Source of the DNA: an uncultured Gammaproteobacteria bacterium
Lineage (GTDB): Bacteria; Patescibacteriota; Patescibacteriia; Magasanikbacterales; UBA922
Assembly (NCBI GenBank): GCA_964457885.1
Contig: CAYWFD010000001.1
Coordinates: forward strand, 1-38,513
Length of the DNA: 38,513 bases
Reading direction: 5' to 3'
The position numbers were made by a program, and so were the translations under genes. The notes beneath the pieces are model-generated. The model worked only from the letters and a program-made list of their open reading frames with translations, made no database searches and was not told the origin of the DNA. Below are positions 6,416 through 38,513 of this stretch, one piece after another. How positions within the stretch are numbered: position 1 is the stretch's first letter; the number at the start of each line of letters is the position of its first letter.

Positions 6416-7993
6416 ATGGTAAAAAAAATAAAAACCCAATCAGAAAATACATTTTCCCCGACCGTCCTCATCATTCTCGATGGATTCGGGCTGGCTCCTG
6501 AAAAAAATCAGGGTAATGCGATTACCTCGAAAACAGCTCCGAATATTTTCGGATACATGAAAAAATACCCGACTTCAAAATTGAAAACATATGGAGAGCA
6601 GGTAGGACTGTTTCCGGGGCAGCGGGGAAATTCGGAGGCAGGACATTTGAATATCGGAGCCGGACGCATCGTGAAGCAGGATTTGGTGGCAATCTCGGAC
6701 ACGATCCATGATGGCACATTTTTCAAAAATGAAGCGTTCAAACAGGCGATTTTTCATGCAAAAAAATACAAATCAGCTGTGCACCTTATGGGACTCCTGA
6801 CTGATGGAAATTCTGCACATTCGTATCCGGAACATCTATATGCATTGCTTGAGCTCTGTCGTAGAGAAGAAGTGAAAGAGGTGTACGTGCACTTGTTCAC
6901 CGACGGACGAGATTCCGGTCCGCATGCGGCAGCAACCTATCTCCATGAACTTCGGGGGCACATGCTGCATACGGAAAAGATCGCGACTATGATGGGGCGT
7001 CTGTACGGCATGGATCGAAACAAGATTTGGGAGCGAACTAAAGAAGCGTATGAAGCGATCACGATGGGGCGTGGGCACGCAGTCACGAGTGCTGAAGAAG
7101 CGTTGGAGCAGGCATATAATCGCGGGGAAACCGACGAATTTATTACCCCCACCGTCATAGTTGACGCGAAAGGGAGACCGGTAGGTGCAGTCAAGGATCA
7201 TGATGTGATCATATTCTTCAATGCGAGGTCCGACCGTGCCCGGCAGATTACCAAAGCGTTTGTGCAGGAGGATTTCAACAAGAAAAATCCAGGTGCATTC
7301 AGGCGGGTAAAAATTCCCAAAAATATCCGATTTGTTGCACTCACCGATTTCGGTCCTGATCTTGAAAAGATTTTGACTGCGTTTCCGTCACCCGACGTAT
7401 ACAATACGCTTCCGCTTGCACTTTCACACCTGACCCAGCTGTATATCGCGGAATCAGAGAAATATGCGCATGTTACGTATTTTATCAATGGAGGATACGC
7501 CGATCCGGTCAATGGGGAGGATCGCATAAAAATAGAATCGAAGACAGTCGCGCATCATGATGAAAAGCCCCAGATGGCAGCGCGTGAGATTACCAAAAAA
7601 GTTTTGGGCTTCATGAAGAAAGATATATACGAATTCTATTGTATCAATTATGCGAATGCAGACATGATCGGACACACCGAGAATTTCAAGGCGGCATGTA
7701 TCGGTGTTGCGACTCTTGACGAATGTGTCGCAGAGATCGTGCAAGAAACCCTGCTCCATAATGGACAAGTGCTGATTGTCGCAGATCATGGAAACGCAGA
7801 AGAAATGAAAGATCTCAAAACCGGTGAAGTGGATACCGAACACAGTCTCAATCCGGTGCCTTGCATTCTGATCAGAAATACGACCAAAGGAATTAAACTA
7901 AAAGATGGAATTCTTGCCGACGTGGCGCCTACGATTATCAAAATGATTGGAGGACGCCAGCCTCAGGAAATGACCGGTAAACCTCTCGTGTAA
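6416..7993 (+). CDS. gpmI: 2,3-bisphosphoglycerate-independent phosphoglycerate mutase, copy 1
   Basis: LIILDGFGLAP, GNSEAGHLNIGAGR (phosphoserine motif), TDGRD, YANADMIGHT and VADHGNAE. Length is 525 aa. Confidence 0.9.
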   Translation: MVKKIKTQSENTFSPTVLIILDGFGLAPEKNQGNAITSKTAPNIFGYMKKYPTSKLKTYGEQVGLFPGQRGNSEAGHLNIGAGRIVKQDLVAISDTIHDGTFFKNEAFKQAIFHAKKYKSAVHLMGLLTDGNSAHSYPEHLYALLELCRREEVKEVYVHLFTDGRDSGPHAAATYLHELRGHMLHTEKIATMMGRLYGMDRNKIWERTKEAYEAITMGRGHAVTSAEEALEQAYNRGETDEFITPTVIVDAKGRPVGAVKDHDVIIFFNARSDRARQITKAFVQEDFNKKNPGAFRRVKIPKNIRFVALTDFGPDLEKILTAFPSPDVYNTLPLALSHLTQLYIAESEKYAHVTYFINGGYADPVNGEDRIKIESKTVAHHDEKPQMAAREITKKVLGFMKKDIYEFYCINYANADMIGHTENFKAACIGVATLDECVAEIVQETLLHNGQVLIVADHGNAEEMKDLKTGEVDTEHSLNPVPCILIRNTTKGIKLKDGILADVAPTIIKMIGGRQPQEMTGKPLV

Positions 7994-7997
7994 CCAT

Positions 7998-9575
7998 ATG
8001 AATCGCCCAAGACCAGCAGTACTCGCTATCCTAGACGGGTGGGGAGTGGCGCCGCCTAGTGACGGCAATGCAATCTATCACGCCGAAACTCCAAACATGG
8101 ATCGGTTTGTTCATGAATATCCGGCAATGTCCCTATACGCTTCGGGAAACGAAGTGGGATTGTCGTATGGAGAAATGGGAAATTCCGAAGTGGGACATCT
8201 CAATATCGGAGCCGGACGCGTGTATTACCAGACGTTTCCCCGGATTAATAAGACCATCATTGATGGTACATTTTTTCAAAACAAAGCCTTCCTTGCCGCA
8301 CACGAACAGGTAGTGTCGCATAAATCATCGCTACATCTGATTGGGCTCGTGAGTCCAGGAAATGTACATGCAAGTCAGGAGCATCTGTATACATTGTTGG
8401 AGTTTGCAAAGAAAAATAAAATCAAAAAAGTGTACATCCATGTCATTCTCGACGGACGTGATACCCTCTATAATTCAGGTAAAGATTTTGTCTTGAAATT
8501 AGAGGAAAAAATCAAAAAAATCGGTGTCGGCGAAATCGCATCACTTTCGGGTCGGTACTATGCCATGGATCGTGACAATCGTTGGGACCGTATTGAGCGC
8601 GCATATCGCGCCATGGTCGAAGGAGTGTCTGAAGCATATTTCAAAGATCCGCTTGAAGCGATCGAGGCATCATATGAGAAACAGGTCTATGATGAAGAAT
8701 TCATTCCGGTGGTGATTGGTAAAGAAGGGAAACCGACCGCGCGAGTCGAGTCAGGTGACGCAGTGATCTTCTTCAATTTTCGCCCCGACCGTGCACGACA
8801 ATTGACCAAAGCGTTTGTCTTACCGGGCTTTGATAAATTCAAGCGCGAATATTTGAAAGATTTATTATTCGTCACCATGACCGAATACGAAAAAGAAATT
8901 CCGGTAGTCGTGGCTTATCCGCCAGTCGTGGTGCACAATTGTCTTGCTGAAGTTTTGAGTAAGGCAGGGTTGACGCAATTCCATGTGGCGGAGACTGAGA
9001 AATACGCGCACATTACCTTCTTTTTGAATGGTACAGTCGAAGATCCGTTCGAAGGCGAAGGGCGTGCGTTCATTCCTTCGCCCAATGTGTCATCATACGA
9101 CAAAGCCCCAGAAATGTCCGCTCCCGAAATCACCAAGAAGACAATTGAAGCGATCGAATCGGATAAGTATGATGTGATCCTTCTGAATTTTGCGAACGCG
9201 GACATGGTGGGACACACCGGCGATCGCGATGCGACGATCAAAGGATGTGAGGCGATCGACAAGGGACTCGGAAAAATCGCAGAATACGTTAAAGCAAAGG
9301 GTGGAATATTATTGATCACGGCCGATCACGGGAACGCGGAAGAGGTAGTCAATTTGAAGACCGGAGAAAAAGATAAAGAACATAGTAATAATCCGGTACC
9401 CTTTCTTATTATCGGCGAACAATTCCGCGGTCTTGCCGGGCCTACCGGAGACCCGCCTGAGGGTGATCTTAGTCTGGTACATCCGGTCGGAATTTTGGCA
9501 GATGTTGCTCCGACGTTATTAAAAGTCCTGGGGATAGAGCAGCCCCCGGAGATGACCGGAAGATCCTTGATATAA
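7998..9575 (+). CDS. gpmI: 2,3-bisphosphoglycerate-independent phosphoglycerate mutase, copy 2 (diverged tandem paralogue)
   Basis: LAILDGWGVAP, GNSEVGHLNIGAGR, LDGRD, FANADMVGHT and TADHGNAE. It is also 525 aa and starts 4 nt after copy 1 ends. Confidence 0.9.
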   Translation: MNRPRPAVLAILDGWGVAPPSDGNAIYHAETPNMDRFVHEYPAMSLYASGNEVGLSYGEMGNSEVGHLNIGAGRVYYQTFPRINKTIIDGTFFQNKAFLAAHEQVVSHKSSLHLIGLVSPGNVHASQEHLYTLLEFAKKNKIKKVYIHVILDGRDTLYNSGKDFVLKLEEKIKKIGVGEIASLSGRYYAMDRDNRWDRIERAYRAMVEGVSEAYFKDPLEAIEASYEKQVYDEEFIPVVIGKEGKPTARVESGDAVIFFNFRPDRARQLTKAFVLPGFDKFKREYLKDLLFVTMTEYEKEIPVVVAYPPVVVHNCLAEVLSKAGLTQFHVAETEKYAHITFFLNGTVEDPFEGEGRAFIPSPNVSSYDKAPEMSAPEITKKTIEAIESDKYDVILLNFANADMVGHTGDRDATIKGCEAIDKGLGKIAEYVKAKGGILLITADHGNAEEVVNLKTGEKDKEHSNNPVPFLIIGEQFRGLAGPTGDPPEGDLSLVHPVGILADVAPTLLKVLGIEQPPEMTGRSLI

Positions 9576-11013: not shown

Positions 11014-14000
11014 ATGTCCCATAAAGAACTCCCCAAAGCCTACGAGCCATCCCAGTATGAAGATGCATTATATCGTCGCGCACAGGATAGTGGCTTTTTT
11101 TCGCCGGACAAGCAGCCGGAATGGGTAAAAAATGATGAAACTCGGGAATCCTTCAGCATGGTCTTGCCTCCGCCGAATGTGACCGGAACCCTTCATATGG
11201 GACATGCGGTCATGCTGGCGATTCAGGACGTCTTGGCACGGTATCACCGGATGAAAGGGGATCGTACCCTTTGGGTGCCAGGAACGGACCACGCAGCAGT
11301 TGCAACCGAATCGAAAGTGGAAAAAATGTTGATCGAGAAAGGAATGAAAAAACCAAAAGCAGAATTTGGCCGTGAAAAGTTTTTAAAAGAAGTGGAAAAA
11401 TTCGCACAAGATTCTCATGACACGATTGTGAACCAGGCAAAAAAGATGGGTGCCTCGCTCGACTGGTCTCGTGAGGCATATACGCTCGATCATGCGCGCA
11501 ATACCGCAGTGAACACACTTTTCACGATGATGTATGATGATGGGCTTATTTACCGTGGTTACCGCGTCATCAATTGGTCCGTCAAAGGTCAGTCCACCTG
11601 CAGTGATGATGAGCTCGTCTATGTGGAGCGACCGGGAAAACTGTACTATTTCAAATATGGACCTGAATGTCCGATCACTATTGCGACCACTCGACCTGAG
11701 ACAAAATTAGGAGATACGGCAATTGCGGTCAATCCAGAAGGGAAATGGAAGAAATATATTGGTGAATATTTTAAGATTGAAAATTTTGGTCAGACCGGAC
11801 ACACGCTTACGCTCAAAGTTATCGCTGATGAAAATGTCGATGATAATTTTGGTACCGGCGCACTTGGAGTGACTCCAGCACATAGCCAGATTGACTTCGA
11901 CATGTATCAGAGACAGAAGGCGAAAGGAGTGAACATTGATTTGATTCAGGTAATTGGTGAAGATGGAAACATGACAGCGAGCGCAGGAAGTGACTATGTA
12001 GGACTCAGTGTTACGGAAGCCCGAAAAAAAGTTGTCGCATGGCTTGAGAAATCAGGTCTTCTTGAGAAATCAGAAGATACGATGCAGAATGTAGGAACCA
12101 GTGACCGGTTTGGGGACGTGGTGGAACCATTACCGAAGACGCAATGGTTTATTGACGTGAACAAAGAATTTACTCTGAAGAATTCGAAATTAAAAGAATT
12201 CAAATCAGGTGACAAAGCAACACTCAAAAAATTGATGCAGTCAGTAGTAAAGACTGGTGAAATTGAGATTATTCCTGATCGATTCAATAAAACCTATTTC
12301 CATTGGATCGACAATCTACGTGATTGGAATATCAGTCGCCAGATTTGGTATGGGCATCAGATTCCCGTATGGTATAGAGGCGAAGAAATTTACTGCGGTA
12401 CTACGGCACCAGAAGGTGAAGGATGGAAACGAGATCCAGACACGCTTGATACGTGGTTTAGTTCAGGTTCATGGACGTTTTCAACATTAGGTTGGCCACG
12501 TACACACGTAGGATTTATACGACATGGAGAAGCTGAAAATAATGTCGCGAAAGTAGTAAATGACGATATTTCGGGTAGTAATTTAACTGAAAAAGGTAGA
12601 AAACAAGTTAATGATCTTGCGAAAGAAGTTAAAAATGAAGGTTTTGAATTAATTGTGTCTTCTCCTGTCCTACGAACCAGACAAACTGCTGAGATTTTAG
12701 CTGAAAAACTAGGGCTACCTGTGGAATTTGATGAACGAATAAGAGAGGTTGGATTTGGTAAACTCGACCACCATACAGAGGCTGAAATTGAGAAAGAACG
12801 TGAAATAAAAGGCTGGATGGTAAAAACACCGTTTGGTATGGAATCATACGTATCGCTCCGCAAGCGAACACATGCTTTTATGCAAGATTTGCTTGCTAAG
12901 TATCCAGGTAAAAAAATATTACTTGTATCTCATGGTGATACGCTTGGGGTGTTGAAACAGTTTGGGACTGATCTCTATACCAATGAAATCGGTTCGACTC
13001 AGGAGAAAGCAAGCTGTGACCTACGTACGTTTGCAAACAATGGACGACAGTCAGATGATCTATCACTTTTCCATCCGACTTCAGTACTCGAAACGGGCTA
13101 CGACATCCTGTTCTTCTGGGTTGCGCGCATGATCCTCATGAGTACGTACGCACTTGGCGAAGTACCGTTTAAGACAGTGTATCTCCATGGACTCGTACGA
13201 GATGAACAGGGTCGAAAAATGAGCAAATCTCTCGGTAATATTATCGATCCTTTGGAAATGATCGGTAAGTATGGAACTGATGCAACGCGATTGTCGCTTC
13301 TAATTGGAGGAACTCCAGGAAACGATATGCGATTGAGCGAAGAAAAAATCGCAGGCTTTAGAAATTTTACGAACAAGCTCTGGAATATTTCACGGTTCAT
13401 GCTCCTCAATATTGAAAATCCCGCTCGAGATCCGAAGGAGCCAAAAGCAGAGACTGCTGCAGACGAATGGATTTTGTACAAATTGAATACCGTTATCGAG
13501 CAGGTAGTTAAGTATCTCGAATCCTATCAATTCTCCCTTGCCGGAGAAACACTTCGAGATTTTACCTGGGGAGAACTCGCAGACTGGTATCTTGAAATCG
13601 CGAAAGTCGAAGGTAATAAAAGTGACATCTTAAATTACATTCTCAATACGATTCTCAAACTTTGGCATCCATACATGCCATTTGTCACGGAACAGATCTG
13701 GCAGGAAGTCTATGGAGGGGAGTCTCTCATGGTAGAAAAGTATCCGGTACCAGGAAAACGAAAGAAAGAGGGTAAAGAAATTGTATTTATCGACACAGTA
13801 CTTATACCAACTATAGTAAAGATTCGTACGATTCGTGCTGAGTATAACATTGATCCAGGAAAAATAATTAACATTGAAATACAATCTGACTCAAGTTATA
13901 AAAAATTGTTTGATGAGTATGGACTAGTAATTGAGCGATTGGGAAGAAGTAAGCGTTATGTTTTGAAAGCAGAATCAGGTTCGTTTGTAATCGGTGGTTC

Positions 14001-14238
14001 GAAGACCTCTTTTGACCTTGGAGGAATAGTTGATGTGGAAAAAGAGCGTGCGCGAATTGAAAAGGAAATTGCTGTGGTCGAACCCTATGTGATTTCCCAG
14101 AAGAAGAAATTGGAAAACAAATCTTTTGTCGACAATGCGCCGAGTGCAGTAGTGGAAGCTGAACGGAAGAAACTTGCAGATGCTGAACAGAAGTTGAACT
14201 CATTGCACGAACAACGTAAGAATTTAATCTCTAATTAA
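11014..14238 (+). CDS. valS: valine--tRNA ligase carrying an internal histidine-phosphatase domain insertion
   Basis: PPPNVTGTLHMGHA (HIGH-type), TTRPETKLGDTAIAVNP and GTGALGVTPAHSQIDFD (editing domain), DTWFSSGSW.FSTLGWP, TGYDILFFWVARM, RKMSKSLGN, and a C-terminal coiled coil (KERARIEKEI...). It is 1074 aa because of the about 184-aa insert. Confidence 0.9.
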   Translation: MSHKELPKAYEPSQYEDALYRRAQDSGFFSPDKQPEWVKNDETRESFSMVLPPPNVTGTLHMGHAVMLAIQDVLARYHRMKGDRTLWVPGTDHAAVATESKVEKMLIEKGMKKPKAEFGREKFLKEVEKFAQDSHDTIVNQAKKMGASLDWSREAYTLDHARNTAVNTLFTMMYDDGLIYRGYRVINWSVKGQSTCSDDELVYVERPGKLYYFKYGPECPITIATTRPETKLGDTAIAVNPEGKWKKYIGEYFKIENFGQTGHTLTLKVIADENVDDNFGTGALGVTPAHSQIDFDMYQRQKAKGVNIDLIQVIGEDGNMTASAGSDYVGLSVTEARKKVVAWLEKSGLLEKSEDTMQNVGTSDRFGDVVEPLPKTQWFIDVNKEFTLKNSKLKEFKSGDKATLKKLMQSVVKTGEIEIIPDRFNKTYFHWIDNLRDWNISRQIWYGHQIPVWYRGEEIYCGTTAPEGEGWKRDPDTLDTWFSSGSWTFSTLGWPRTHVGFIRHGEAENNVAKVVNDDISGSNLTEKGRKQVNDLAKEVKNEGFELIVSSPVLRTRQTAEILAEKLGLPVEFDERIREVGFGKLDHHTEAEIEKEREIKGWMVKTPFGMESYVSLRKRTHAFMQDLLAKYPGKKILLVSHGDTLGVLKQFGTDLYTNEIGSTQEKASCDLRTFANNGRQSDDLSLFHPTSVLETGYDILFFWVARMILMSTYALGEVPFKTVYLHGLVRDEQGRKMSKSLGNIIDPLEMIGKYGTDATRLSLLIGGTPGNDMRLSEEKIAGFRNFTNKLWNISRFMLLNIENPARDPKEPKAETAADEWILYKLNTVIEQVVKYLESYQFSLAGETLRDFTWGELADWYLEIAKVEGNKSDILNYILNTILKLWHPYMPFVTEQIWQEVYGGESLMVEKYPVPGKRKKEGKEIVFIDTVLIPTIVKIRTIRAEYNIDPGKIINIEIQSDSSYKKLFDEYGLVIERLGRSKRYVLKAESGSFVIGGSKTSFDLGGIVDVEKERARIEKEIAVVEPYVISQKKKLENKSFVDNAPSAVVEAERKKLADAEQKLNSLHEQRKNLISN
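12499..13050 (+). other. histidine phosphatase superfamily (PGAM/CobC-type, branch 1) domain embedded in valS
   Basis: VGFIRHGEAENN, LTEKGRKQ, IVSSPVLRTRQTAEIL, EVGFGKLD and LLVSHGDTLG. It is in frame with ValRS on both sides and has no stop codons. Confidence 0.75.
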
Positions 14239-14251
14239 TATCTTTATTCGT

Positions 14252-14629
14252 ATGGACAAGAAAAAAACAAATCTCATCTGGTGGGTTGCTGGACTCCTCA
14301 TTCTCGCAGGAATCATCGGACTGTCGGTATATCAGAAGAATCAGCCAGGTGAATTTGACGAATTTGCGACCTGTATCAAAGATAGCGGTACCATTTTCTA
14401 TGGTGCATTCTGGTGCCCACATTGCCAGTCGCAAAAGGCACTCTTTGGAAAGTCAGCAGATTTACTTCCGTATATTGAGTGTTCTACACCAAGCAAGTCA
14501 CAGAATAAAATATGTAATGATGCAGGGATCGAATCGTATCCGACTTGGAAATTCCCGGATGGTGCAATCGCTACGGGCGAACTTTCATTCCAAGAGCTCT
14601 CTGACAAGACCAAATGTGAAATCAAGTAG
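14252..14629 (+). CDS. membrane-anchored thioredoxin-like protein (CPHC), of the type found fused to or partnered with bacterial VKOR
   Basis: The N-terminal TM segment is LIWWVAGLLILAGIIGLSV. FYGAFWCPHCQSQKALFG...YIEC...C..AGIESYPTW resembles the Trx-like domain of VKOR-Trx fusions. Confidence 0.7.
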   Translation: MDKKKTNLIWWVAGLLILAGIIGLSVYQKNQPGEFDEFATCIKDSGTIFYGAFWCPHCQSQKALFGKSADLLPYIECSTPSKSQNKICNDAGIESYPTWKFPDGAIATGELSFQELSDKTKCEIK

Positions 14630-17583: not shown

Positions 17584-18072
17584 ATGTTGTCTTTTTTAAA
17601 AGAAATCATTACGGATGTCCGTGAAGCTCGTATCCCAGGCTGGCTTTTTTGGGTGATTATCGTATGTGCGGGAATTGGTTTTCTTGATGCAAGTTTTTTG
17701 TCGATCGAACATGTCGTCACCTCATTCAATGGGGGCGGAGTGAATTGTATTGTGGGTTCTCCTGGATCATGTAATATTGTGCTGGAAAGCATTTATGCGA
17801 AAGTGCAGGGTATCCCGCTGTCGTATCTTGGCCTCCTCTATTATACGGCGATTATTATCCTCATTACCCGCCTGCACGCGGCCCGAAAAATACATCTATG
17901 GTTATTGCTCCGGGGAATTATCACCTGCGGTTTCCTCGCGAGTCTCTACTTTGTCTATCTGCAGCTGGTAGTATTGCGGACGATCTGTCCCTACTGCATG
18001 CTCTCAGCGGCGATGTCTGCGATCATGTTTGCAGGTGTAGTGTCCCATCACGTTAAAAAACAGCTTAAATAA
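17584..18072 (+). CDS. vitamin K epoxide reductase (VKOR) family membrane protein
   Basis: There are about four hydrophobic helices, a loop cysteine pair (GGVNCIVGSPGSCN), YAKVQGIPLSYLG, and CPYC in the last helix. Confidence 0.75.
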   Translation: MLSFLKEIITDVREARIPGWLFWVIIVCAGIGFLDASFLSIEHVVTSFNGGGVNCIVGSPGSCNIVLESIYAKVQGIPLSYLGLLYYTAIIILITRLHAARKIHLWLLLRGIITCGFLASLYFVYLQLVVLRTICPYCMLSAAMSAIMFAGVVSHHVKKQLK

Positions 18073-32984: not shown

Positions 32985-33337
32985 CTACGTCCCGCCCCGC
33001 ATATATCCGAAACGGATTTTGCGGAGGGCAGCCTCTTCGCGTTGCCGTACGCGCTCGCGTGTGAGACCGAGCGTTTCGCCGATCTCCTCAAGCGTTTCCG
33101 CGGGACGCCCGCCGAGTCCGTATCTGCGAGCGAGAATTTCACGGTCTTTGGCCTTGAGCTCGACCGCATACAGCAAGTGAGCGAGCTCCTGGCGGATCGC
33201 AAACACCTCGGCGTCGGTGTCTGCATGTTTCCCGGCACCGAGTGTCTCATCGCCAATCACATCTTGGTACGTTCCCTTATCAGTAGTGCCCCGGACGAGC
33301 GGTTGCTGCATGCTCACCGATTTGCTTCGGTAGATGG
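32985..33337 (-). pseudogene. sigma-70 family fragment (regions 3.2-4 only)
   Basis: SVSMQQPLVRGTTDKGTYQDVIGDE resembles the region 3.2 pattern (sLd.Pig....lgD.i.D). LKAKDREILARRYGLGGRPAETLEEIGETLGLTRERVRQREEAALRKIR is the region 4.2 HTH. Regions 1-2 are absent. GC is about 68% in a hand-counted line. Confidence 0.6.
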
Positions 33338-33585
33338 ACAGTGCCTGCAGCAGCAGCGAGAACTGGTTTTCCCAGTGAGCTGCATCCATCGCCAACGATG
33401 TCGATCGCATAGCGATCATCCGTGTACTGTCCACCGTAGTCGATGTGGCTCTGCGTGTTGTAGGTGCGGGTAAGCTTCCAGGTTTCCCCTCCAGGAAAGG
33501 GAAACTTGAGAGTAGGTTGAGCATGTGTGCTGCTACAGAGCAGTATCACACATGTCATTGCTAGAAAACTTAGAACGCGGTTCAC
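33338..33585 (-). pseudogene. M23 peptidase 5' fragment (signal peptide plus first half of the catalytic domain)
   Basis: The GTG start at 33585 is preceded by AAGGAG. The signal peptide is MNRVLSFLAMTCVILLCSSTHA. SHIDYGGQYTDDRYAIDIVGDGCSSLGKPVLAAAAGTV matches the H...D and G.PV.A.A.G.V part of M23 domains. The frame breaks at about 33337, where the sigma homology begins in another frame. Confidence 0.55.
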
Positions 33586-33683: not shown

Positions 33684-34820
33684 TTACTTTAAAATAGTAG
33701 AAAAAATTCCTTTTACTACATCACTATTTATCATGCTCTGTACGCCAGTTTTAGGATTATTTCTGTAGGTGTCTTCAATGTCTATATGTACAAGATATCC
33801 CGTATTTTCTTTACTCTTTGTAAGAATTTGTACACAATAATTTGATTCTGCATATCCGCAATAAGTAAATAAAGCGAATGCATTTAAATCATTTTTACTT
33901 ACTTTTTCTGAGTATTGAATATGTTCCTGTAGATAGGGTGCTGTACCATTTTTATATTCTCCCTTAGACTGTATCAATTGAGAGCGTAAATTTTCAATAT
34001 CTGTGTCAAAGTTTATTTCATTAGGAGTGAAAGAAGTTGGCGTACCTTCTCCCATGCCTAGTGCAAAATCAGGACTCATAATGAAGAGTGTGTAACCAGG
34101 CTTACTATCAAAAGTCATTTCGTAGCGGATCCCGCGATCAAATCCGTGTAATGTAACATTTTTATACTCATTAGAGATTCCGATATTTTTCAGAGAAGTA
34201 GACAGTTGCTTAACAATGTTGTCATATTTCTGACTAATTGATGGAGAAATTAATCGAAGAACACTAATTGAATCACGAGTTGCAAAATTATCTGGTATTT
34301 GTTGTGAAAATTGAATTTGATATGCGCATTCTTTATCAAGTGTTGCATCTGCACAGGTGATTATAATATTGGACCCTTCCAGGGATATGGAACCTATTCT
34401 ATTAACATCTTTAATTTGTGTATCAAAATAAACAATAAAAGGTTGGTCATTTCGAATGAAAGACGTTTTTAAAATGATTGTTGATGTAGTCGGAATATAT
34501 GCAACATCTTCTTTGCTTATTCGGTAAATAGTGTATAAAATATTCTTTTCAGAATCATTGATTGTTTTTACTTCCAGGGCCTTTTTAAGAATCTCATCTA
34601 AATCAGAAATAAAAAGTTGATTTATATGACGTATTTCCCCAACAGTATAAGGTTTTGATGCATCGTTGGTGCTAGTTGGGGTAATTGTGTCGGGATTTTG
34701 ATCATTAGGGCTAGTTACAATAGGAGAGTTTTTAGTAATGTACATATCGTACACAAACCATCCGCCTACCGCGAGAACAACAACTGCAACGAGTATTCCG
34801 ATTTGAGTATTTCTATTCAT
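33684..34820 (-). CDS. membrane-anchored hypothetical protein (378 aa), no recognisable domain
   Basis: It is the long clean ORF in an about 28% GC segment. The N-terminal TM segment is IGILVAVVVLAVGGWFV, followed by a Thr/Pro/Asn-rich linker. I recognise no family motifs. Confidence 0.5.
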   Translation of the reverse strand: MNRNTQIGILVAVVVLAVGGWFVYDMYITKNSPIVTSPNDQNPDTITPTSTNDASKPYTVGEIRHINQLFISDLDEILKKALEVKTINDSEKNILYTIYRISKEDVAYIPTTSTIILKTSFIRNDQPFIVYFDTQIKDVNRIGSISLEGSNIIITCADATLDKECAYQIQFSQQIPDNFATRDSISVLRLISPSISQKYDNIVKQLSTSLKNIGISNEYKNVTLHGFDRGIRYEMTFDSKPGYTLFIMSPDFALGMGEGTPTSFTPNEINFDTDIENLRSQLIQSKGEYKNGTAPYLQEHIQYSEKVSKNDLNAFALFTYCGYAESNYCVQILTKSKENTGYLVHIDIEDTYRNNPKTGVQSMINSDVVKGIFSTILK

Positions 34821-34902
34821 ACATAAAAAGTTAAGATTTTAGGCTATATTTACACGAATTTGCCTAATTGTCAATAAATATATACTACTTGTTTTGAAAA
34901 GT

Positions 34903-34930
34903 AAAAACACCCCAATCGGGGTGTTTTTTT
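34903..34930. terminator. orphan bidirectional hairpin (AAAACACCC...GGGTGTTTT type)
   Basis: AAAAACACCCC-aatc-GGGGTGTTTTTTT. It lies upstream of both flanking (divergent) genes, so it terminates no annotated transcript. Confidence 0.5.
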
Positions 34931-35062
34931 GAGTGCTCATCTTCAGTATCCGTCTCGGACACATACCAGGGCTACTCAAGTTCGTGCACCACCTCAGTCC
35001 TAAGGGGATACCCATCTCGGTCGGGGGCCTATTTTTATAAAATGAGACAAATGAGACACTTA

Positions 35063-35090
35063 TTGAACATATTCAAATATCTGGTAGTAT
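35063..35090 (+). promoter_or_regulatory. putative promoter for the MOSC gene
   Basis: TTGAAC (35063..35068), 16-nt spacer, TGgTAGTAT (TAGTAT 35085..35090). The RBS AAAGGAG lies 7 nt before the ATG at 35121. Confidence 0.4.
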
Positions 35091-35120
35091 AGTCACAAAC
35101 CCACGAAAAGGAGTCTGGGT

Positions 35121-35582
35121 ATGGCGAATGGAAAAGTAGTGGCAATCTGTATCTCTCCGGTTGCAGGAGGTCCTATGCAACTGGTCAATGAAGTCCGGGC
35201 GTTCGAAGGTATGGGTCTTCAAGGAGATCGGTACTGTACAGGTCAAGGTAGCTTCAACAAGGGTAATCAAGGACGTAGACAGGTCACGTTCATCAATGGG
35301 ATCTTCTTCAAGGACACGGGCTTCGAGTACGTCGATAGCCGACGGAACATCGTCGTCGAAGGTGTCGAACTCATCTGGCTCATTGGGAAGTACTTCTCGA
35401 TCGATGACGCCAAGTTCCTCGGCGTGAAGTACTGTGATCCTTGTGATCGACCGAGCAAGCTCTCGGGCAAGCCGGGGTTCAAGGAAGCCTTCTACGATCG
35501 TGGTGGTCTAGTTGCCGAAGTGTTCTGCACCGGACTCATCCGAGTCGGAGACGAGGTCATCCCGCCTTCCAAAGGCTACTGA
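35121..35582 (+). CDS. MOSC domain-containing protein
   Basis: GLQGDRY, RQVTFI and KYCDPCDRP (conserved Cys region) in 153 aa. GC is about 52-55% in two hand-counted lines. Confidence 0.75.
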   Translation: MANGKVVAICISPVAGGPMQLVNEVRAFEGMGLQGDRYCTGQGSFNKGNQGRRQVTFINGIFFKDTGFEYVDSRRNIVVEGVELIWLIGKYFSIDDAKFLGVKYCDPCDRPSKLSGKPGFKEAFYDRGGLVAEVFCTGLIRVGDEVIPPSKGY

Positions 35583-35601
35583 GCACTATGCTCGCATTCG
35601 C

Positions 35602-35639
35602 CGACCGTCCCAGAGCATCTGTGGACGGTCGTGCTTTTT
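35602..35639 (+). terminator. intrinsic terminator after the MOSC gene
   Basis: CGACCGTCC (35602..35610) pairs with GGACGGTCG (35623..35631), with extra CAGA/TCTG pairs inside, followed by TGCTTTTT. Confidence 0.7.
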
Positions 35640-35662
35640 ATGGGATATACTGATTTCAATCT

Positions 35663-36130
35663 ATGAAAGAAAATAATGTCTTGAGAATTATGGAATTTAT
35701 AATCCACGTCAATACGCTTATAACTAACAGTGAGAATCAAATACTTCTAGTACATGAAAAGAAAGAAAAGGTTTTTAATAAACTTAATCTTCCGGGTGGT
35801 CATTTAGAATCTGGAGAGAAAATAATTGAGGGCGCTAAACGTGAAGTCATGGAAGAAGTGGGTGTGGAAGTTGAAATGCTAGATCTGATTGGAATATATA
35901 CAGGTGTAGGTACTAGTCATTATATCAACTTTATTTTTGCCGCGAATATTGGCAATGCTGTTCCTGTTGTAAATAAAAATGAAATCAATGATCTGGGATG
36001 GTATTCATGTGATGAAATTTTGAATATGCCAGATGAAAAAATACTTAATCCTCGTAAACTAAGAAAAGTAATTAGTGATTATCTATCAGGAAATGTGGGT
36101 TCTCTAAGTATGATTAGTGAAGATATATAA
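35663..36130 (+). CDS. NUDIX hydrolase
   Basis: A complete Nudix box is present: GGHLESGEKIIEGAKREVMEEVGVEV (G-x5-E-x7-REVxEExGV). Confidence 0.85.
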   Translation: MKENNVLRIMEFIIHVNTLITNSENQILLVHEKKEKVFNKLNLPGGHLESGEKIIEGAKREVMEEVGVEVEMLDLIGIYTGVGTSHYINFIFAANIGNAVPVVNKNEINDLGWYSCDEILNMPDEKILNPRKLRKVISDYLSGNVGSLSMISEDI

Positions 36131-36151
36131 CCAAATTAATCTGCAGCTATT

Positions 36152-36364
36152 ATGAATGTTAGCCTAAAAAAAGATAAATTCAGAAGGGATAGGGGAGGAA
36201 GTTCTCGCTTTCTTACTATTATATGTACGATTTGCAAATCAATACTTGCACAGTATCAGAAAGACGGCCCGGGAGAATTAAAGCGAATGTACCTTGATCG
36301 TATTTCCAATTCTATTTTGATAGAAAAAGGAAAAAATTATTGCTGCCCCAAATGTGAACAGTAG
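36152..36364 (+). CDS. small zinc-ribbon protein (70 aa), unknown function
   Basis: There are two CxxC pairs (CTICKS ... CPKCEQ). It starts 21 nt after the NUDIX stop and has the same AT-rich composition. Confidence 0.4.
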   Translation: MNVSLKKDKFRRDRGGSSRFLTIICTICKSILAQYQKDGPGELKRMYLDRISNSILIEKGKNYCCPKCEQ

Positions 36365-36479
36365 TCGGTATATTTTTTATATACAAAAAAGAAACGAGGC
36401 CCGCAATAAGAATAAATAGGGGATCAATACTTAAGAAGATGACTAAATGAGTGTTCAAAAAAGAGAAAATTTCTTATAT

Positions 36480-36505
36480 AAAAAACACCCGATGTGGGTG
36501 TTTTT
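36480..36505. terminator. bidirectional intrinsic terminator (AAAACACCC...GGGTGTTTT type)
   Basis: AAAAACACCC-gatgt-GGGTGTTTTT lies between the convergent zinc-ribbon gene and the M23 gene. Confidence 0.6.
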
Positions 36506-36668
36506 CTAATCATTCATCAATCAATCTAATCGAGACTAACTTATGAATGATCCTATCTGGCACCAATCACACGATTGCTCGTATGCTGATGCCAGATAGG
36601 GGAGATCTTCTTGACTCTCGAAAGTGTCGATCCAGTGGACCAGGCCATCTCTCAAGAGCATGTGAAGC

Positions 36669-38513
36669 TCATTGCGACGTGAACGAGAACTCGTTCAGGT
36701 ATTGCCAGGTCGTGCCCGTCTTCACGAAGAAGACGGCGCGCCAGGAACCGCTCGGCGGAGTATTGAACTCGGGGAAGAACCAACCAGTGCTACCCGACGG
36801 TGCAGAGTACGGACCGAAGTCCCAGCTCCAGTCGAGTGCCGTCCCGCGGTACATGTTGACCCGGAAACTGTGGGTCGAGGTAAGTCCAGTGACCGGGATG
36901 CGCCAGTAGTAGCGCGACCACGATTGCACTTGATTACCCCAGACTTTGTCCCAGCATTGCGGAACTCCCGTGCCGTCACGCTCGTTTTCGTAGTAGCCCC
37001 GGCAGAGTTCCATGCCGCCGTTGTAGGGGTAGGATCCTGAAGGATTCGCTGCGACCGTGAATGTGATGTTGTCCTTGAGAACTTGCCAGCCATTGCCGAT
37101 GTCGATGTCAATCGTGGCTTTCCAGCTTCCTGACGGAGGGTACCAGAGAGTCGGCCAGGTGTAGGCCGATCCCCAAGCTTGTCCTGAAGGAATGATGTTC
37201 CAGCCAGTCTGATCGATCGAATACGGAGTAGGTGAACCGTTGAGGAAGAACCTGCCACGCCACTTGTGCGAGACAGTGATGTTATTCACGTGCACGAGCA
37301 CGCGAATTGCCTCACTCGTGTTGAACGTGGTTTTCGGTCCCGGGCACGTGTACACCCAGTTCGTGCTTTCGCCACCCGTGGGATTATTCGCACACCGCGT
37401 GACATTGCCGTCGTAGGTGTACGGCGGACCTGCGTTCACGGTGAAGGAAACGATTCCTACGTCGTAGTCGATCGGATGGTAGAAGTCGAACTTCTTTTCG
37501 ACGTCGTAGTGAACTTCGTAGGTGCCCGGGACATTTGCCTGGGTTTGATTCCAAGCAAACGCGTGCACCCACATCTGTCCCGAAGGAACTTCATTCCAGC
37601 TACCCTGAGTCCAGGAGCTGATCTGTTGTCCGTTTCGGAACGTGCGAGTTCTGAAACGATGTGATGTTGTGACATTGTCGATCCGGAAGAGCGACCAGAC
37701 CGTGTCACCTTGCTGATACACCTGTTCCGGGTTGTTGCAGGTGTAGATCCAGTTGGTGTTCGCACCACCGGTAACTCCATCTTTGCAGTGGTAGGCATTC
37801 CCATTGTATTGGTACGGGTAGCCCGGATACTGCTGATTACCTCCTTGAACGATGAAGCTTAGAGTTGTAAGTGGTAGGAATCCGTCACCCGTATCTGCGA
37901 ACGTCCGCAACTCCCAGTCTCCCGCCCACACATTTCTAAACTCCGGATTGAAGTAGGTGTAACCCCATACATTTGGCTCGACCTGACGCTCGGTCGGCTC
38001 TTGCCATGCCCAGTCATAGTCGAGCTCGCCGACTCGCCATGCTTCGACGCGGAACGTGATGTTCTGACTGATTTGAGTCAGGCGAATGACCGAGAAAACA
38101 TCCTCGCCTTCATAGAAGATGGTTTCGCGATCGTTGCAACTGTACACCCAGTTGGTCGTTGGTCCGCCGATGGGAGGGTCACTACACGTGTACGCATTTG
38201 TAGTGTTATTGTCGAAAAGGTACGGTGGGTAGTTGTTCGAGATGTACTTCTGTCCGGTTGTTGTAGTGACGGTTAGTGTGTTGACGCCCGAGATCGGAGT
38301 CGGGGCAACACTCATTCCGTTGTAGTAGAGAACGAAGTGAATGTGTGAACCCGCGTGCGGACAGCTACTGGACGTGATGATATGTCCAGTGTTACCCGCC
38401 TTACCGATCTGCTGACCCTGGCTGACGTACTGACCTGGTGTCGCAGTAATCTCGCTGAGATGTGCGTACCGAGTTTTCCATCCACCTCCGTGATTCACGA
38501 AGAGGTTGATGCC
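36669..38513 (-). CDS. M23 family metallopeptidase (C-terminal half of the catalytic domain in view) followed by four tandem domains of about 120 aa of unknown family; the 5' end lies beyond the right edge
   Basis: The frame is open to the window edge (GINLFVNHGGGWKTRYAHLSEI...GQQIGKAGNTG...GSHIHFVLYYNG is the M23 HxH half). The track start at 38498 is an internal GTG. GC is about 60% in a hand-counted line. Confidence 0.8.
   Translation of the reverse strand, partial: GINLFVNHGGGWKTRYAHLSEITATPGQYVSQGQQIGKAGNTGHIITSSSCPHAGSHIHFVLYYNGMSVAPTPISGVNTLTVTTTTGQKYISNNYPPYLFDNNTTNAYTCSDPPIGGPTTNWVYSCNDRETIFYEGEDVFSVIRLTQISQNITFRVEAWRVGELDYDWAWQEPTERQVEPNVWGYTYFNPEFRNVWAGDWELRTFADTGDGFLPLTTLSFIVQGGNQQYPGYPYQYNGNAYHCKDGVTGGANTNWIYTCNNPEQVYQQGDTVWSLFRIDNVTTSHRFRTRTFRNGQQISSWTQGSWNEVPSGQMWVHAFAWNQTQANVPGTYEVHYDVEKKFDFYHPIDYDVGIVSFTVNAGPPYTYDGNVTRCANNPTGGESTNWVYTCPGPKTTFNTSEAIRVLVHVNNITVSHKWRGRFFLNGSPTPYSIDQTGWNIIPSGQAWGSAYTWPTLWYPPSGSWKATIDIDIGNGWQVLKDNITFTVAANPSGSYPYNGGMELCRGYYENERDGTGVPQCWDKVWGNQVQSWSRYYWRIPVTGLTSTHSFRVNMYRGTALDWSWDFGPYSAPSGSTGWFFPEFNTPPSGSWRAVFFVKTGTTWQYLNEFSFTSQ
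36678..38231 (-). repeat. four tandem protein-level repeats (about 37845..38231, 37434..37826, 37050..37427, 36678..37034)
   Basis: Each unit starts (Y/P)PY.(F/Y).(G/N)N...C....(I/T)GG..TNW(V/I)Y(S/T)C, has a mid motif (I/V)(T/S)(V/T)SH(K/R/S)(W/F)R, then PSG(Q/S)(A/M/S)W, and ends (S/T)F(I/T)V. The fourth unit is more divergent (MELCRGYY...VPQCW). Confidence 0.7.

What the first reader, a model, noticed from the sequence alone, without database searches (positions are those of the whole stretch)
36669..38513. GC-rich M23 peptidase fused to four tandem about 120-aa Cys-containing domains of unrecognised family
Seen: after the HxH half of an M23 domain (…GNTGHIITSSSCPHAGSHIHFVLYYNG) and a Thr-rich linker come four tandem units. 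Their protein residues, numbered from the internal GTG at 38498, are about 90-218, 225-355, 358-483 and 489-607. The units share a skeleton of aromatic-Pro-Tyr lead-in, N..(Y/T).C, GG..TNW(V/I)Y(S/T)C, a (T/S)SH(K/R/S)(F/W)R strand, PSG..W, and a closing (S/T)F(T/I)V. Identity between units is low, so the array is old rather than a recent expansion. The fourth unit has lost the GG..TNW motif. Trp/Tyr/Asn richness and paired cysteines suggest a beta-sandwich carbohydrate- or cell-wall-binding module. I cannot match it to LysM, SH3b, PG_binding, CBM or FN3 patterns from memory. Inference: this is a secreted lytic enzyme with a novel targeting array, probably horizontally acquired (about 60% GC). 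It is potentially relevant to attacking or remodelling another cell's wall. It would depend on the VKOR/Trx system in this window for disulfides.
Basis: partly seen in the sequence, partly recalled or inferred. Interest (0 to 1): 0.65.

Follow-up and report, generated by a model that had tools for sequence, protein, structure and literature searches.

The report
Wall-cutting enzyme with unnamed binding repeats
An uncultivated ultra-small bacterium (Magasanikbacteria) encodes an exported cell-wall-cutting enzyme that carries four copies of an unnamed beta-sandwich domain, probably its targeting part, since close relatives keep this array but swap the cutting head.

Summary
The minus-strand ORF 36669-38513 runs off the window edge. 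It encodes the C-terminal half of an M23 peptidase, a Thr-rich linker and four tandem units of about 122-130 aa. Each unit has one Cys pair spaced 16 residues apart.

- **Repeats are real.** Pairwise BLASTP between units gives E-values from 3e-26 to 3e-3. Unit 4 is a true but divergent copy.
- **No named family.** No Pfam, NCBIfam or PDB sequence model matches the unit.
- **Fold.** AlphaFold2 gives a confident all-beta model (pLDDT 96). Its best structural match is the Wzt O-antigen carbohydrate-binding domain (TM 0.67).
- **Family.** It is small, about 230 clusters among 1.84 billion representatives. Every organism name I retrieved except one automated label is Patescibacteria. 29 of 49 representatives carry M23.
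- **Head swap.** The closest relative (76% identity across the array) carries a VldE-like L,D-endopeptidase head instead of M23.
- **Composition.** The gene is 54.6% GC, not about 60%. It is GC-richer than its flanks in all nine related loci examined.

Best reading: an exported modular peptidoglycan endopeptidase with a new cell-envelope or glycan-binding array. Whether it targets the cell's own wall or a host's is unresolved. A truncated 5' gene copy at 33280-33585 raises a rearrangement or assembly caveat.

The parts
38301..38513 (-). C-terminal half of an M23 zinc peptidase domain (aa 1-71 of the in-window translation). It carries the HxH motif GSHIHF and Cys51. The N-terminal half and any signal peptide lie beyond the window edge.
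   Evidence: Pfam PF01551 E 6.1e-14, model positions 37-96 of 96. The closest solved sequences are LasA 3it5 (2.1e-7) and ShyA 6ue4 (7.3e-7). The ORF aligns to P0002 aa 94-699.
38232..38300 (-). Thr-rich linker (aa 72-94).
   Evidence: Read from the translation. It lies outside both the M23 match and the unit HMM matches.
37842..38231 (-). Unit 1 of the unnamed beta-sandwich domain (aa 95-224), with Cys110/Cys126.
   Evidence: Unit HMM E 8.7e-42. BLASTP to U2 2e-16 and to U3 9e-12. Cys positions.
37431..37823 (-). Unit 2 (aa 231-361), with Cys243/Cys259.
   Evidence: Unit HMM E 9.9e-45. BLASTP to U3 3e-26.
37047..37430 (-). Unit 3 (aa 362-489), with Cys374/Cys390. This is the unit that was modelled.
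   Evidence: AlphaFold2 pLDDT 96.0, pTM 0.87, ten beta strands. The top Foldseek match in PDB is the Wzt carbohydrate-binding domain, TMq up to 0.67, E from 5e-5.
36672..37040 (-). Unit 4 (aa 492-614), with Cys504/Cys520. It is a divergent copy that lacks the GG..TNW motif. The stop codon is at 36669-36671.
   Evidence: 29.6 bits against an HMM built without unit-4-type rows; the best of 1000 shuffles scores 7.0. BLASTP to U1 9.5e-6 and to U3 3.8e-6.
36505..36668 (-). Conserved, strongly structured element directly after the stop codon. It forms three long hairpins. A terminator-like stem with a T-run follows at about 36480-36504 (my reading of the aligned sequence; the consensus scan did not flag it).
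   Evidence: MFE -76.3 kcal/mol, z-score -8.2. It is 87-89% identical at the nucleotide level in L001-L003, L005 and L010, against 69-81% for the coding sequence. Consensus fold. No Rfam match.
33280..33585 (-). Truncated 5' copy of a peptidase gene of the same type. It encodes a signal-peptide-like start plus the N-terminal half of the M23 domain. Homology ends at 33328.
   Evidence: tblastn with P0002 aa 4-87: 68% identity, E 8e-30, frame intact. The 101-aa ORF is listed.
33684..34820 (-). 378-aa protein with an N-terminal hydrophobic, membrane-anchor-like segment (read by eye) and no named family. It is homologous to the small proteins encoded just upstream of the peptidase gene in L001-L007 and L010.
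   Evidence: tblastn and blastp hits: 37% over 186 aa to the L002 229-aa protein, 37% over 121 aa to the L004 186-aa protein, 25% over 120 aa to the L010 194-aa protein. No Pfam hit.
35004..35060 (-). 57-nt conserved segment. In L001 and L005 it directly follows the 3' element. In the window it is separated from that element by a 1.45-kb insertion carrying MOSC, NUDIX and a 70-aa ORF.
   Evidence: blastn hits and the alignment. Pfam assignments for MOSC and NUDIX.
17584..18072 (+). VKOR homologue. It is context only: it suggests the organism can form extracytoplasmic disulfides.
   Evidence: Pfam PF07884 E 3.3e-24. Any link to the Cys pairs in the units is inferred, not tested.

Best explanation
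The gene encodes an exported, modular peptidoglycan endopeptidase of a Magasanikbacteria (Patescibacteria/CPR) genome.

**Catalytic head.** The N-terminal M23 zinc domain cuts peptide bonds in peptidoglycan. This is inferred from the family.

**Targeting array.** Behind a short linker sit four position-specialised beta-sandwich units of about 122 aa each. Each is clamped by one disulfide in an N-terminal hairpin loop. I infer that the array binds a cell-envelope polymer, most likely a glycan or the wall itself. It would then concentrate and orient the catalytic head on its substrate.

**Cassette.** The array is the conserved part of a gene cassette. In close relatives the same array carries a VldE-like L,D-endopeptidase head instead of M23. 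The cassette stands out compositionally from each genome that holds it.

**Shown:** domain content, repeat homology, fold, head swap, compositional anomaly and taxonomic setting.

**Inferred:** export (from homologues and the truncated copy), disulfides, ligand binding, and which cell is attacked. For the signal-peptidase-type forms such as this one I lean slightly towards a non-self target, meaning a host or competitor. That lean is weak.
For: - **M23 half:** Pfam E 6.1e-14 with the HxH motif. LasA and ShyA are the nearest solved sequences.
- **Repeats:** four homologous units, with one invariant Cys pair and one invariant Trp per unit.
- **Fold:** pLDDT 96. The 12 best PDB matches are all Wzt carbohydrate-binding domains or full-length Wzt transporters. 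Wzt from three species appears among the matches, with TMq 0.58-0.67 in the top 12. The next folds (RhoGDI, GH2 Ig-like domains) reach at most 0.55. The A. aeolicus Wzt domain binds the methylated sugar cap of O antigen (PMC9445017).
- **Composition:** the array is rich in Trp (5.8%), Tyr (6.5%), Asn (7.7%) and Thr (10.2%).
- **Partners:** M23 in 29 of 49 representatives, plus trypsin, astacin-like and C39-like peptidases.
- **Head swap:** P0001 is 76% identical across the array. Its head (Pfam PF26571 'VldE') models onto the VldE catalytic domain with TMt 0.74 and 26-28% identity. VldE is a demonstrated peptidoglycan L,D-endopeptidase (PMC11667670).
- **Export:** the full-length homologues begin with signal-peptide-like or lipobox-like N-termini (sequences; read by eye). 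The truncated copy begins MNRVLSFLAMTCVILLCSSTHA|QP.
- **Mobility:** GC3 of the gene exceeds that of the flanks in all nine related loci examined. L005 and L007 share only the region around the gene, at 83-87% nucleotide identity.
- **Organism:** the window's ArgRS has best named hits in Candidatus Magasanikbacteria.
Against: - No binding or enzymatic data exist for any member of the family.
- The Wzt resemblance is at fold level only: 7-11% identity, and no Wzt_C HMM hit at E<=10. Ig-like sandwiches also mediate protein-protein contacts or act as spacers.
- The window ORF lacks its N-terminus, so the signal peptide, the HxxxD motif and the intactness of the gene are unverified.
- A truncated 5' copy ends at the position equivalent to P0002 aa 87. 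The window ORF begins at the position equivalent to aa 94. These nearly abutting breakpoints could mean a single gene split by a rearrangement or a misassembly.
- Many homologues have lipobox-like N-termini, with the catalytic domain next to the anchor. One homologue is followed by SpoIID. Both favour a housekeeping autolysin role.
Confidence: 0.6

Rival explanations
1. **Housekeeping autolysin.** The enzyme remodels the producer's own wall during growth or division. The array binds the cell's own peptidoglycan or a secondary wall polymer, or it acts as a spacer through the wall and S-layer.
For: - M23 and VldE enzymes are classically self-wall remodelling enzymes. VldE localises to the septum (PMC11667670).
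- Many homologues have lipobox-like N-termini (for example VAAC|ASDD and LVAC|ASD; read by eye). That would place the catalytic domain next to the cell's own membrane.
- P0013 is followed by a SpoIID gene.
- The gene sits at the same position relative to the MacB operon in the window and in L005.
Against: - The family is rare: about 230 clusters among 1.84 billion representatives.
- The gene is compositionally foreign in all nine related loci examined.
- It lies in a variable island that holds gene fragments.
- Close relatives have swapped the catalytic head.

These traits are more typical of accessory or conflict genes than of core division enzymes.
Confidence: 0.35
2. **Non-glycan scaffold.** The array is a protein-protein adhesion or stalk module of Ig-like type, not a carbohydrate or wall binder. 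It would present the enzyme at a distance or dock it to a partner such as the membrane-anchored protein encoded upstream.
For: - Below Wzt, the Foldseek list is made of generic Ig-like or E-set folds: RhoGDI, GH2 domains, ApaG.
- The four units are position-specialised, as in rigid stalks.
- A small protein with a membrane-anchor-like N-terminus is encoded upstream in L001-L007 and L010.
Against: - The best and most consistent structural matches are carbohydrate-binding domains from three species.
- The array is rich in aromatic and Asn residues.
- It is fused to several unrelated hydrolase classes, which is typical behaviour for a substrate-binding module.
Confidence: 0.2
3. **Broken gene or assembly artefact.** The ORF at the window edge is the 3' part of a gene that is disrupted in this genome, or it was joined wrongly during assembly. 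In that case no functional enzyme is made from it here.
For: - A frame-intact 5' fragment (equivalent to P0002 aa 4-87) lies about 3 kb away on the same strand. The edge ORF starts at the position equivalent to aa 94. The two pieces are nearly complementary.
- The surrounding 5 kb is a mosaic. It holds a sigma-70 region-4 fragment, a 1.45-kb insertion and large GC swings.
Against: - The 1842-nt frame is fully open with conserved motifs. It is 58-76% identical to intact homologues.
- No sequence overlap exists between the window end and the fragment.
- A tandem duplication with a decayed second copy explains the layout equally well.
Confidence: 0.2

Closest known systems
Secreted M23 bacteriolysins with a C-terminal wall-targeting domain (lysostaphin, zoocin A, LasA type)
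   Same: An M23 zinc endopeptidase head is followed by a non-catalytic C-terminal module that is thought to direct the enzyme to a wall. LasA is the nearest solved sequence to the window's M23 half (E 2.1e-7). The domain logic of these enzymes is from my general knowledge.
   Different: Those enzymes use a single SH3b or target-recognition domain. Here there are four tandem beta-sandwich units of about 122 aa, each with a disulfide. They have no sequence match to SH3b, LysM, PG_binding or any other Pfam family. Activity and target are untested.
Wzt C-terminal carbohydrate-binding domain of O-antigen ABC transporters (PDB 8dky, 6o14, 5hno, 2r5o)
   Same: It is the best structural neighbour of unit 3: TMq up to 0.67, E from 5e-5, with Wzt from three species among the matches. 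It is a beta-sandwich or jelly-roll domain that recognises a terminal sugar cap (PMC9445017).
   Different: Identity is only 7-11%, and no unit hits the Pfam Wzt_C model at E<=10. The Wzt domain is cytoplasmic, forms a strand-swapped dimer, is fused to an ATPase and has no disulfide. The units here are extracytoplasmic, tandem and Cys-clamped. Homology is not established.
VldE (Spr1875) L,D-endopeptidase of Streptococcus pneumoniae
   Same: The head of the closest array-bearing relatives (P0001, P0005-P0008, P0010, P0011) carries Pfam PF26571 'VldE'. It matches VldE structures by sequence (E 2e-5) and by fold (TMt 0.74). Like VldE, these proteins combine the catalytic domain with a separate putative wall-binding module.
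   Different: [quoted passage not shown] Here the binding module is the C-terminal four-unit array. The window's own gene carries M23, not VldE.
Tandem wall-binding repeat arrays of autolysins and endolysins (choline-binding repeats, CW_binding, SLH, SPOR)
   Same: The general architecture is the same: a catalytic head plus a repeated non-catalytic array (my general knowledge).
   Different: The fold and sequence are different. The units are much longer, about 122 aa. No phage record carries the array (tblastn against 50,697 phage records: no match).

Membership tests
Peptidase family M23 (PF01551) | Profile match above Pfam's gathering score | tested here: met
   52.4 bits against a cut-off of 28.7, E 6.1e-14. 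Only model positions 37-96 of 96 are matched, because the ORF runs off the window.
Peptidase family M23 (PF01551) | C-terminal zinc and catalytic HxH motif | tested here: met
   GSHIHF is present at aa 56-61 of the translation. It lies within the Pfam M23 match (aa 4-71) and within the stretch that aligns to P0002.
Peptidase family M23 (PF01551) | N-terminal zinc ligands (HxxxD-type motif) in the same polypeptide | not testable with these tools
   This part of the gene lies beyond 38513. A separate truncated copy at 33280-33585 encodes the equivalent region (68% identity to P0002 aa 4-87). It is not contiguous with the edge ORF.
Peptidase family M23 (PF01551) | Muralytic or glycyl-glycine endopeptidase activity | not testable with these tools
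   Needs a zymogram or muropeptide LC-MS.
Wzt_C / carbohydrate-binding beta-sandwich | Sequence-profile match to the family | tested here: not met
   None of the 37 units hits Wzt_C at E<=10. The unit profile finds nothing in PDB sequences at E<=10.
Wzt_C / carbohydrate-binding beta-sandwich | Same fold | tested here: met
   The top 12 Foldseek hits are all Wzt carbohydrate-binding domains or full-length Wzt, with TMq 0.58-0.67 and E 5e-5 to 1e-3. The query model has pLDDT 96.
Wzt_C / carbohydrate-binding beta-sandwich | Binds a defined sugar in a concave pocket | not testable with these tools
Needs a glycan array, ITC or a crystal structure.
Known wall-binding domains (LysM, SH3b, PG_binding_1, SPOR, SLH, CW_binding, CBMs) | Profile match to any of these | tested here: not met
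   The whole protein at E<=10 gives only M23 plus two chance-level hits. Among the 37 units at E<=10, CBM27 appears in 2 of 37 (best 0.007) and CBM_5_12 in 1 of 37 (3.6). No Pfam family is matched by more than 2 of the 37 units. NCBIfam shows M23-type models only.
The unnamed ~122-aa unit family itself (defined here) | Significant match to the unit profile, Cys-x15-Cys loop, invariant Trp, closing F.V strand | tested here: met
   All four window units have E from 3e-31 to 9e-46 against the unit HMM. C13, C29 and W86 are invariant in 37 units. The family holds 230 representative proteins at E<=1e-3. Some distant members (for example P0065 and P0069) match only profile positions from about 21-31 onwards. 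Their sequences as printed hold no cysteine, so they lack the Cys loop.

The most novel reading that the evidence does not exclude
The array is a host-surface glycan reader that sets the host or prey range of Patescibacteria. It would travel as a horizontally mobile 'lysis cassette' made of three parts:
- a membrane-anchored partner or immunity protein,
- a peptidase with an interchangeable wall-cutting head (M23 or VldE-like),
- a conserved structured 3' element.

This would be a bacteriocin-like weapon system specific to the CPR radiation.
Probability: 0.18. Interest if true: 0.7.

Novelty: new variant of a known kind. Interest (0 to 1): 0.45.

Why it matters
How Patescibacteria/CPR cells recognise, attach to and breach other cells is largely unknown, and most of their surface proteins carry no annotation. 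This locus defines a compact domain family that models with high confidence. It is tied mainly to peptidoglycan-cutting heads, and all but one of the organism names retrieved for it are CPR lineages.

If the units bind a defined wall polymer or glycan, they would give a handle on substrate or host specificity of CPR lytic enzymes. They would also be a new binding module for engineered lysins.

If the enzyme is only a housekeeping autolysin, the result is still useful. It would be a new wall-binding domain family that deserves a Pfam entry.

Tried and rejected
- **Sequence recognition of the unit.** Nothing consistent came from Pfam on the whole protein at E<=10, NCBIfam, Pfam on each of 37 units at E<=10, or PDB searched with the single sequence and with the unit profile.
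- **Failed or unproductive tool calls.**
  - The search for homologous proteins with the unit profile returned only one protein, a limit of the word index.
  - Aligning 98 full-length family members failed internally. I used 49 instead.
- **Recovering the missing 5' end.** An exact look-up of the neighbouring NUDIX protein found no contig on record. No k-mer overlap exists between the window end and the truncated copy.
- **Phage origin.** tblastn of the array against 50,697 phage records gave no match. BFVD fold hits are only uncharacterised proteins with TM at most 0.64.
- **The 3' element.** It has no Rfam family. The only hit in the region, Phe_leader at 34872-34933, scores 33.6 bits against a gathering score of 55 and I treat it as chance. 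A metagenome scan with its invariant 19-mer returned two contigs with no further similarity, so these are chance matches.
- **ORF inside the 3' element.** A 41-aa ORF lies at 36536-36661. I rejected it because a 1-nt indel breaks the frame in L001 and L005.
- **'Gammaproteobacteria' label on L005.** I rejected it as a guide to the window's organism. The window's ArgRS groups with Magasanikbacteria.
- **Literature.** A search for PDB code 9FLH gave irrelevant papers. Searches on Patescibacteria with M23 or peptidoglycan hydrolases found no description of this domain.
Full report
**1. What is in the sequence**

On the minus strand an ORF is open from the window edge (38513) to a stop at 36669-36671, which gives 614 codons. 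The frame continues to the edge.

Residues 4-71 match Pfam Peptidase_M23 at model positions 37-96 of 96 (E 6.1e-14, 52.4 bits, cut-off 28.7). NCBIfam gives only partial M23-type matches far below their cut-offs. The nearest solved sequences are LasA (3it5, 2.1e-7) and ShyA (7.3e-7). So the window holds the HxH half (GSHIHF) of an M23 zinc peptidase. The other half and the true N-terminus lie outside it.

**2. The repeats are real**

- Pairwise BLASTP of the four proposed units gives U2-U3 3e-26, U1-U2 2e-16, U1-U3 9e-12, U1-U4 9.5e-6, U3-U4 3.8e-6 and U2-U4 3e-3.
- A unit HMM iterated over the window protein and 16 homologues finds 2-4 units of about 122 aa per protein. In the window the units lie at aa 97-222, 233-359, 364-487 and 494-613.
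- Unit 4 lacks the GG..TNW motif. Against an HMM built without any unit-4-type rows it still scores 29.6 bits. The best of 1000 shuffles scores 7.0.
- Each unit has exactly one Cys pair, always 16 residues apart: 110/126, 243/259, 374/390 and 504/520. In an alignment of 37 units both Cys and one Trp are invariant.
- Between orthologous proteins, same-position units are 53-57% identical and different-position units only 17-34%.
- The array is rich in Thr, Gly, Asn, Tyr and Trp.

**3. The unit has no name but has a clear fold**

*Sequence searches.*
- Pfam on the whole protein at E<=10 gives nothing beyond M23 and two chance-level hits.
- Pfam on nine homologues at E<=0.1 and ten distant family members at E<=0.01 gives no family over the repeats.
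- Pfam on each of the 37 units at E<=10 gives no consistent family. CBM27 appears in 2 of 37 with a best E of 0.007.
- A profile of the units finds nothing in PDB sequences at E<=10.
- The precomputed Pfam labels of the homologues list only PF01551 or PF26571, with PF06904 in two of them.
- NCBI names for members are just 'M23 family metallopeptidase', 'hypothetical protein', or in one case 'peptidoglycan-binding domain 1 protein'.

*Structure.* AlphaFold2 on unit 3 with the 37-unit alignment gives pLDDT 96.0 and pTM 0.87, with ten beta strands. Foldseek against PDB places Wzt carbohydrate-binding domains and full-length Wzt in the first 12 ranks. Wzt from three species appears among the matches. 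TMq is 0.58-0.67 in those ranks and E runs from 5e-5 to 1e-3. Identity is only 7-11%. Generic Ig-like folds follow, such as RhoGDI and GH2 domains, at TMq 0.55 or less.

The A. aeolicus Wzt domain is a jelly-roll that binds the 3-O-methyl-mannose cap of O antigen (PMC9445017). This is fold similarity and not demonstrated homology. The disulfide is inferred from invariance, from the extracytoplasmic setting, and from the two Cys lying in or next to strands 11-14 and 26-28 of the model.

**4. The family and its partners**

A profile search of 1.84 billion cluster representatives finds 230 proteins at E<=1e-3, 169 at 1e-10 and 92 at 1e-30. The family is real but rare.

Of 49 representatives scanned in Pfam, 29 carry Peptidase_M23. 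Two carry trypsin, one an astacin/matrixin-like zincin, one a C39-like peptidase, one MopE and one fn3. Some distant members match only from about profile position 21-31 onwards, and P0065 and P0069 as printed hold no cysteine. Some carry further domains after the units.

Every member for which I retrieved an organism name, except loci with one automated label, is from Patescibacteria:
- Parcubacteria (P0007, P0074),
- Magasanikbacteria (P0011, L004, L007),
- Uhrbacteria (P0039).

Three loci carry the label 'uncultured Gammaproteobacteria'. I distrust it for L005, because that locus is syntenic with the window. The window's ArgRS has best named hits in Candidatus Magasanikbacteria: 72% identity to the best named hit and 90% to an unnamed one. 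No phage record encodes the array.

**5. Head swapping**

The protein most similar to the window's array, P0001/L005, is 76% identical over aa 98-614 at the protein level and 81% at the nucleotide level. It does not carry M23. Its N-terminal 200 aa carry Pfam PF26571 'VldE'.
- By sequence this head matches the VldE crystal structures (E 2e-5).
- An AlphaFold2 model (pLDDT 71.5) matches the VldE catalytic domain with TMt 0.74 and 26-28% identity. Weak matches (E above 0.5) to hedgehog N-terminal domains, LdcB and MepA follow. From general knowledge these are LAS-type zinc peptidase folds.
- VldE is an experimentally shown peptidoglycan L,D-endopeptidase (PMC11667670).

The nearest M23-bearing full-length relative, P0002, is only 58% identical. 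Homology between the window and P0001 starts exactly at unit 1.

Two unrelated peptidoglycan peptidase heads on one conserved array is the strongest indirect argument here. It suggests that the array is the targeting or delivery part and the head is the interchangeable tool.

**6. Composition and mobility**

The gene is 54.6% GC with GC3 of 66.5%. The rest of the window is 43.7% GC, and housekeeping genes have GC3 of 39-50%.

The same anomaly recurs in all nine related loci examined. Gene GC is 0.50-0.58 and GC3 is 0.51-0.82, against flanks of 0.33-0.47. L005 and L007 share only the region around the gene (83-87% nucleotide identity), and the rest does not align. This fits repeated horizontal movement of a cassette among low-GC CPR genomes. 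However, the window and L005 also share its position next to a HlyD/ABC/MacB operon, so it is not a very recent arrival here.

**7. Surroundings, including things outside the finding**

- **Upstream partner.** The 378-aa protein at 33684-34820 has an N-terminal hydrophobic, membrane-anchor-like segment and no Pfam hit. It is homologous to the small proteins encoded immediately upstream of the peptidase in L001-L007 and L010. It is a mosaic of two such proteins.
- **Truncated 5' copy.** Directly downstream of that protein, at 33280-33585, is a frame-intact 5' fragment of an M23 gene. It is 68% identical to P0002 aa 4-87 and starts with a signal-peptide-like MNRVLSFLAMTCVILLCSSTHA|QP. Homology stops at 33328. 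The edge ORF starts at the position equivalent to P0002 aa 94.
  - The layout fits a tandem duplication of [partner, peptidase, 3' element] with a decayed second peptidase copy.
  - The nearly abutting breakpoints also allow a rearranged or mis-assembled single gene.
  - No overlap exists to decide between these.
- **Sigma fragment.** Next to the truncated copy lies a sigma-70 region-4 fragment (E 3.7e-13).
- **Structured 3' element.** The 164 nt after the stop (36505-36668) fold into three long hairpins, with MFE -76.3 kcal/mol and z-score -8.2. They are better conserved than the coding sequence: 87-89% against 69-81%. There is no Rfam family.
- **Insertion.** A further conserved 57 nt follows this element directly in L001 and L005. 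In the window it is separated from it by a 1.45-kb insertion with MOSC, NUDIX and a 70-aa ORF.
- **Disulfide machinery.** VKOR is present at 17584-18072. The only thioredoxin-like ORF, 14252-14629, scores below Pfam's cut-off.

**8. Interpretation**

*Shown:* an M23 half, four homologous disulfide-type beta-sandwich units of an unnamed family, a Wzt-like fold, a strong association with wall-cutting heads, head swapping, compositional foreignness and a Magasanikbacteria host genome.

*Inferred:* export, disulfide formation, binding of a wall or surface polymer by the array, and the identity of the target cell.

I commit to 'exported modular peptidoglycan endopeptidase with a new envelope-binding array' at about 0.6.

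Self versus non-self target stays open.
- Lipobox-like N-termini in many homologues and a SpoIID neighbour in one favour an autolysin.
- Rarity, mobility, head swapping and the island-like setting favour a conflict or host-interaction role.

**9. Novelty**

The kind is well known: a lytic enzyme plus a non-catalytic targeting repeat. The module itself is not in Pfam-A, NCBIfam or PDB by sequence, and I found no paper describing it. I rate it a new variant of a known kind, of moderate interest.

Noticed in passing
window 33280-33585 (-): A 101-aa ORF encodes a signal-peptide-like start plus the N-terminal half of an M23 domain. It is 68% identical to P0002 aa 4-87, and homology ends at 33328. 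The edge ORF begins at the position equivalent to aa 94. This is either a decayed second copy or the split-off 5' end of the same gene.
   Followed up: partly
window 36505-36668 (-); also L001 2863-3018, L005 7559-7705, L010 7499-7645: The 3' element right after the stop codon folds into three long hairpins (MFE -76.3 kcal/mol, z-score -8.2). It is 87-89% conserved at the nucleotide level, which is better than the coding sequence. It has no Rfam family and was found nowhere else. Its function is unknown; it could be an RNA stabiliser, a terminator complex or a cassette boundary.
   Followed up: partly
window 33684-34820 (-): A 378-aa protein with an N-terminal membrane-anchor-like segment, no Pfam family and very low GC (33%, GC3 23.5%). 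It is a mosaic of the two types of small protein that sit directly upstream of the peptidase gene in L001-L007 and L010. It is a candidate partner or immunity protein.
   Followed up: partly
window 35061-36510: A 1.45-kb insertion relative to L001 and L005 splits the conserved 3' region. It carries MOSC (35121-35582, GC 53%), NUDIX (35663-36130, GC 32%) and a 70-aa ORF rich in paired Cys (CxxC motifs, read by eye; 36152-36364). The genes have contrasting composition.
   Followed up: partly
window 32985-33300 (-): An isolated sigma-70 region-4 fragment (Pfam E 3.7e-13, GC 61%) with no regions 2-3. It abuts the truncated M23 fragment. This is a gene-fragment mosaic at the edge of the variable island.
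   Followed up: partly
window 11014-14238 (+): The valyl-tRNA synthetase carries a histidine-phosphatase (His_Phos_1) domain inserted at aa 501-647 (E 2.7e-36). This is an unusual insertion in a class I synthetase.
   Followed up: no
window 6416-7993 and 7998-9575 (+): Two adjacent 525-aa cofactor-independent phosphoglycerate mutase genes lie in tandem, downstream of GAPDH, PGK and enolase.
   Followed up: no
L005 (CAYUTO010000002.1), L008, L009: The records are labelled 'uncultured Gammaproteobacteria'. However, L005 is syntenic with the window (74-81% nucleotide identity), and the window's ArgRS groups with Magasanikbacteria. The taxonomic label is probably wrong for L005.
   Followed up: partly
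L010 1881-3299 and 7964-8755; L013 7369-8583: Related cassettes sit next to a TIR-domain protein, a NERD-domain protein and a serine recombinase. This is an accessory or defence-island-like neighbourhood.
   Followed up: no
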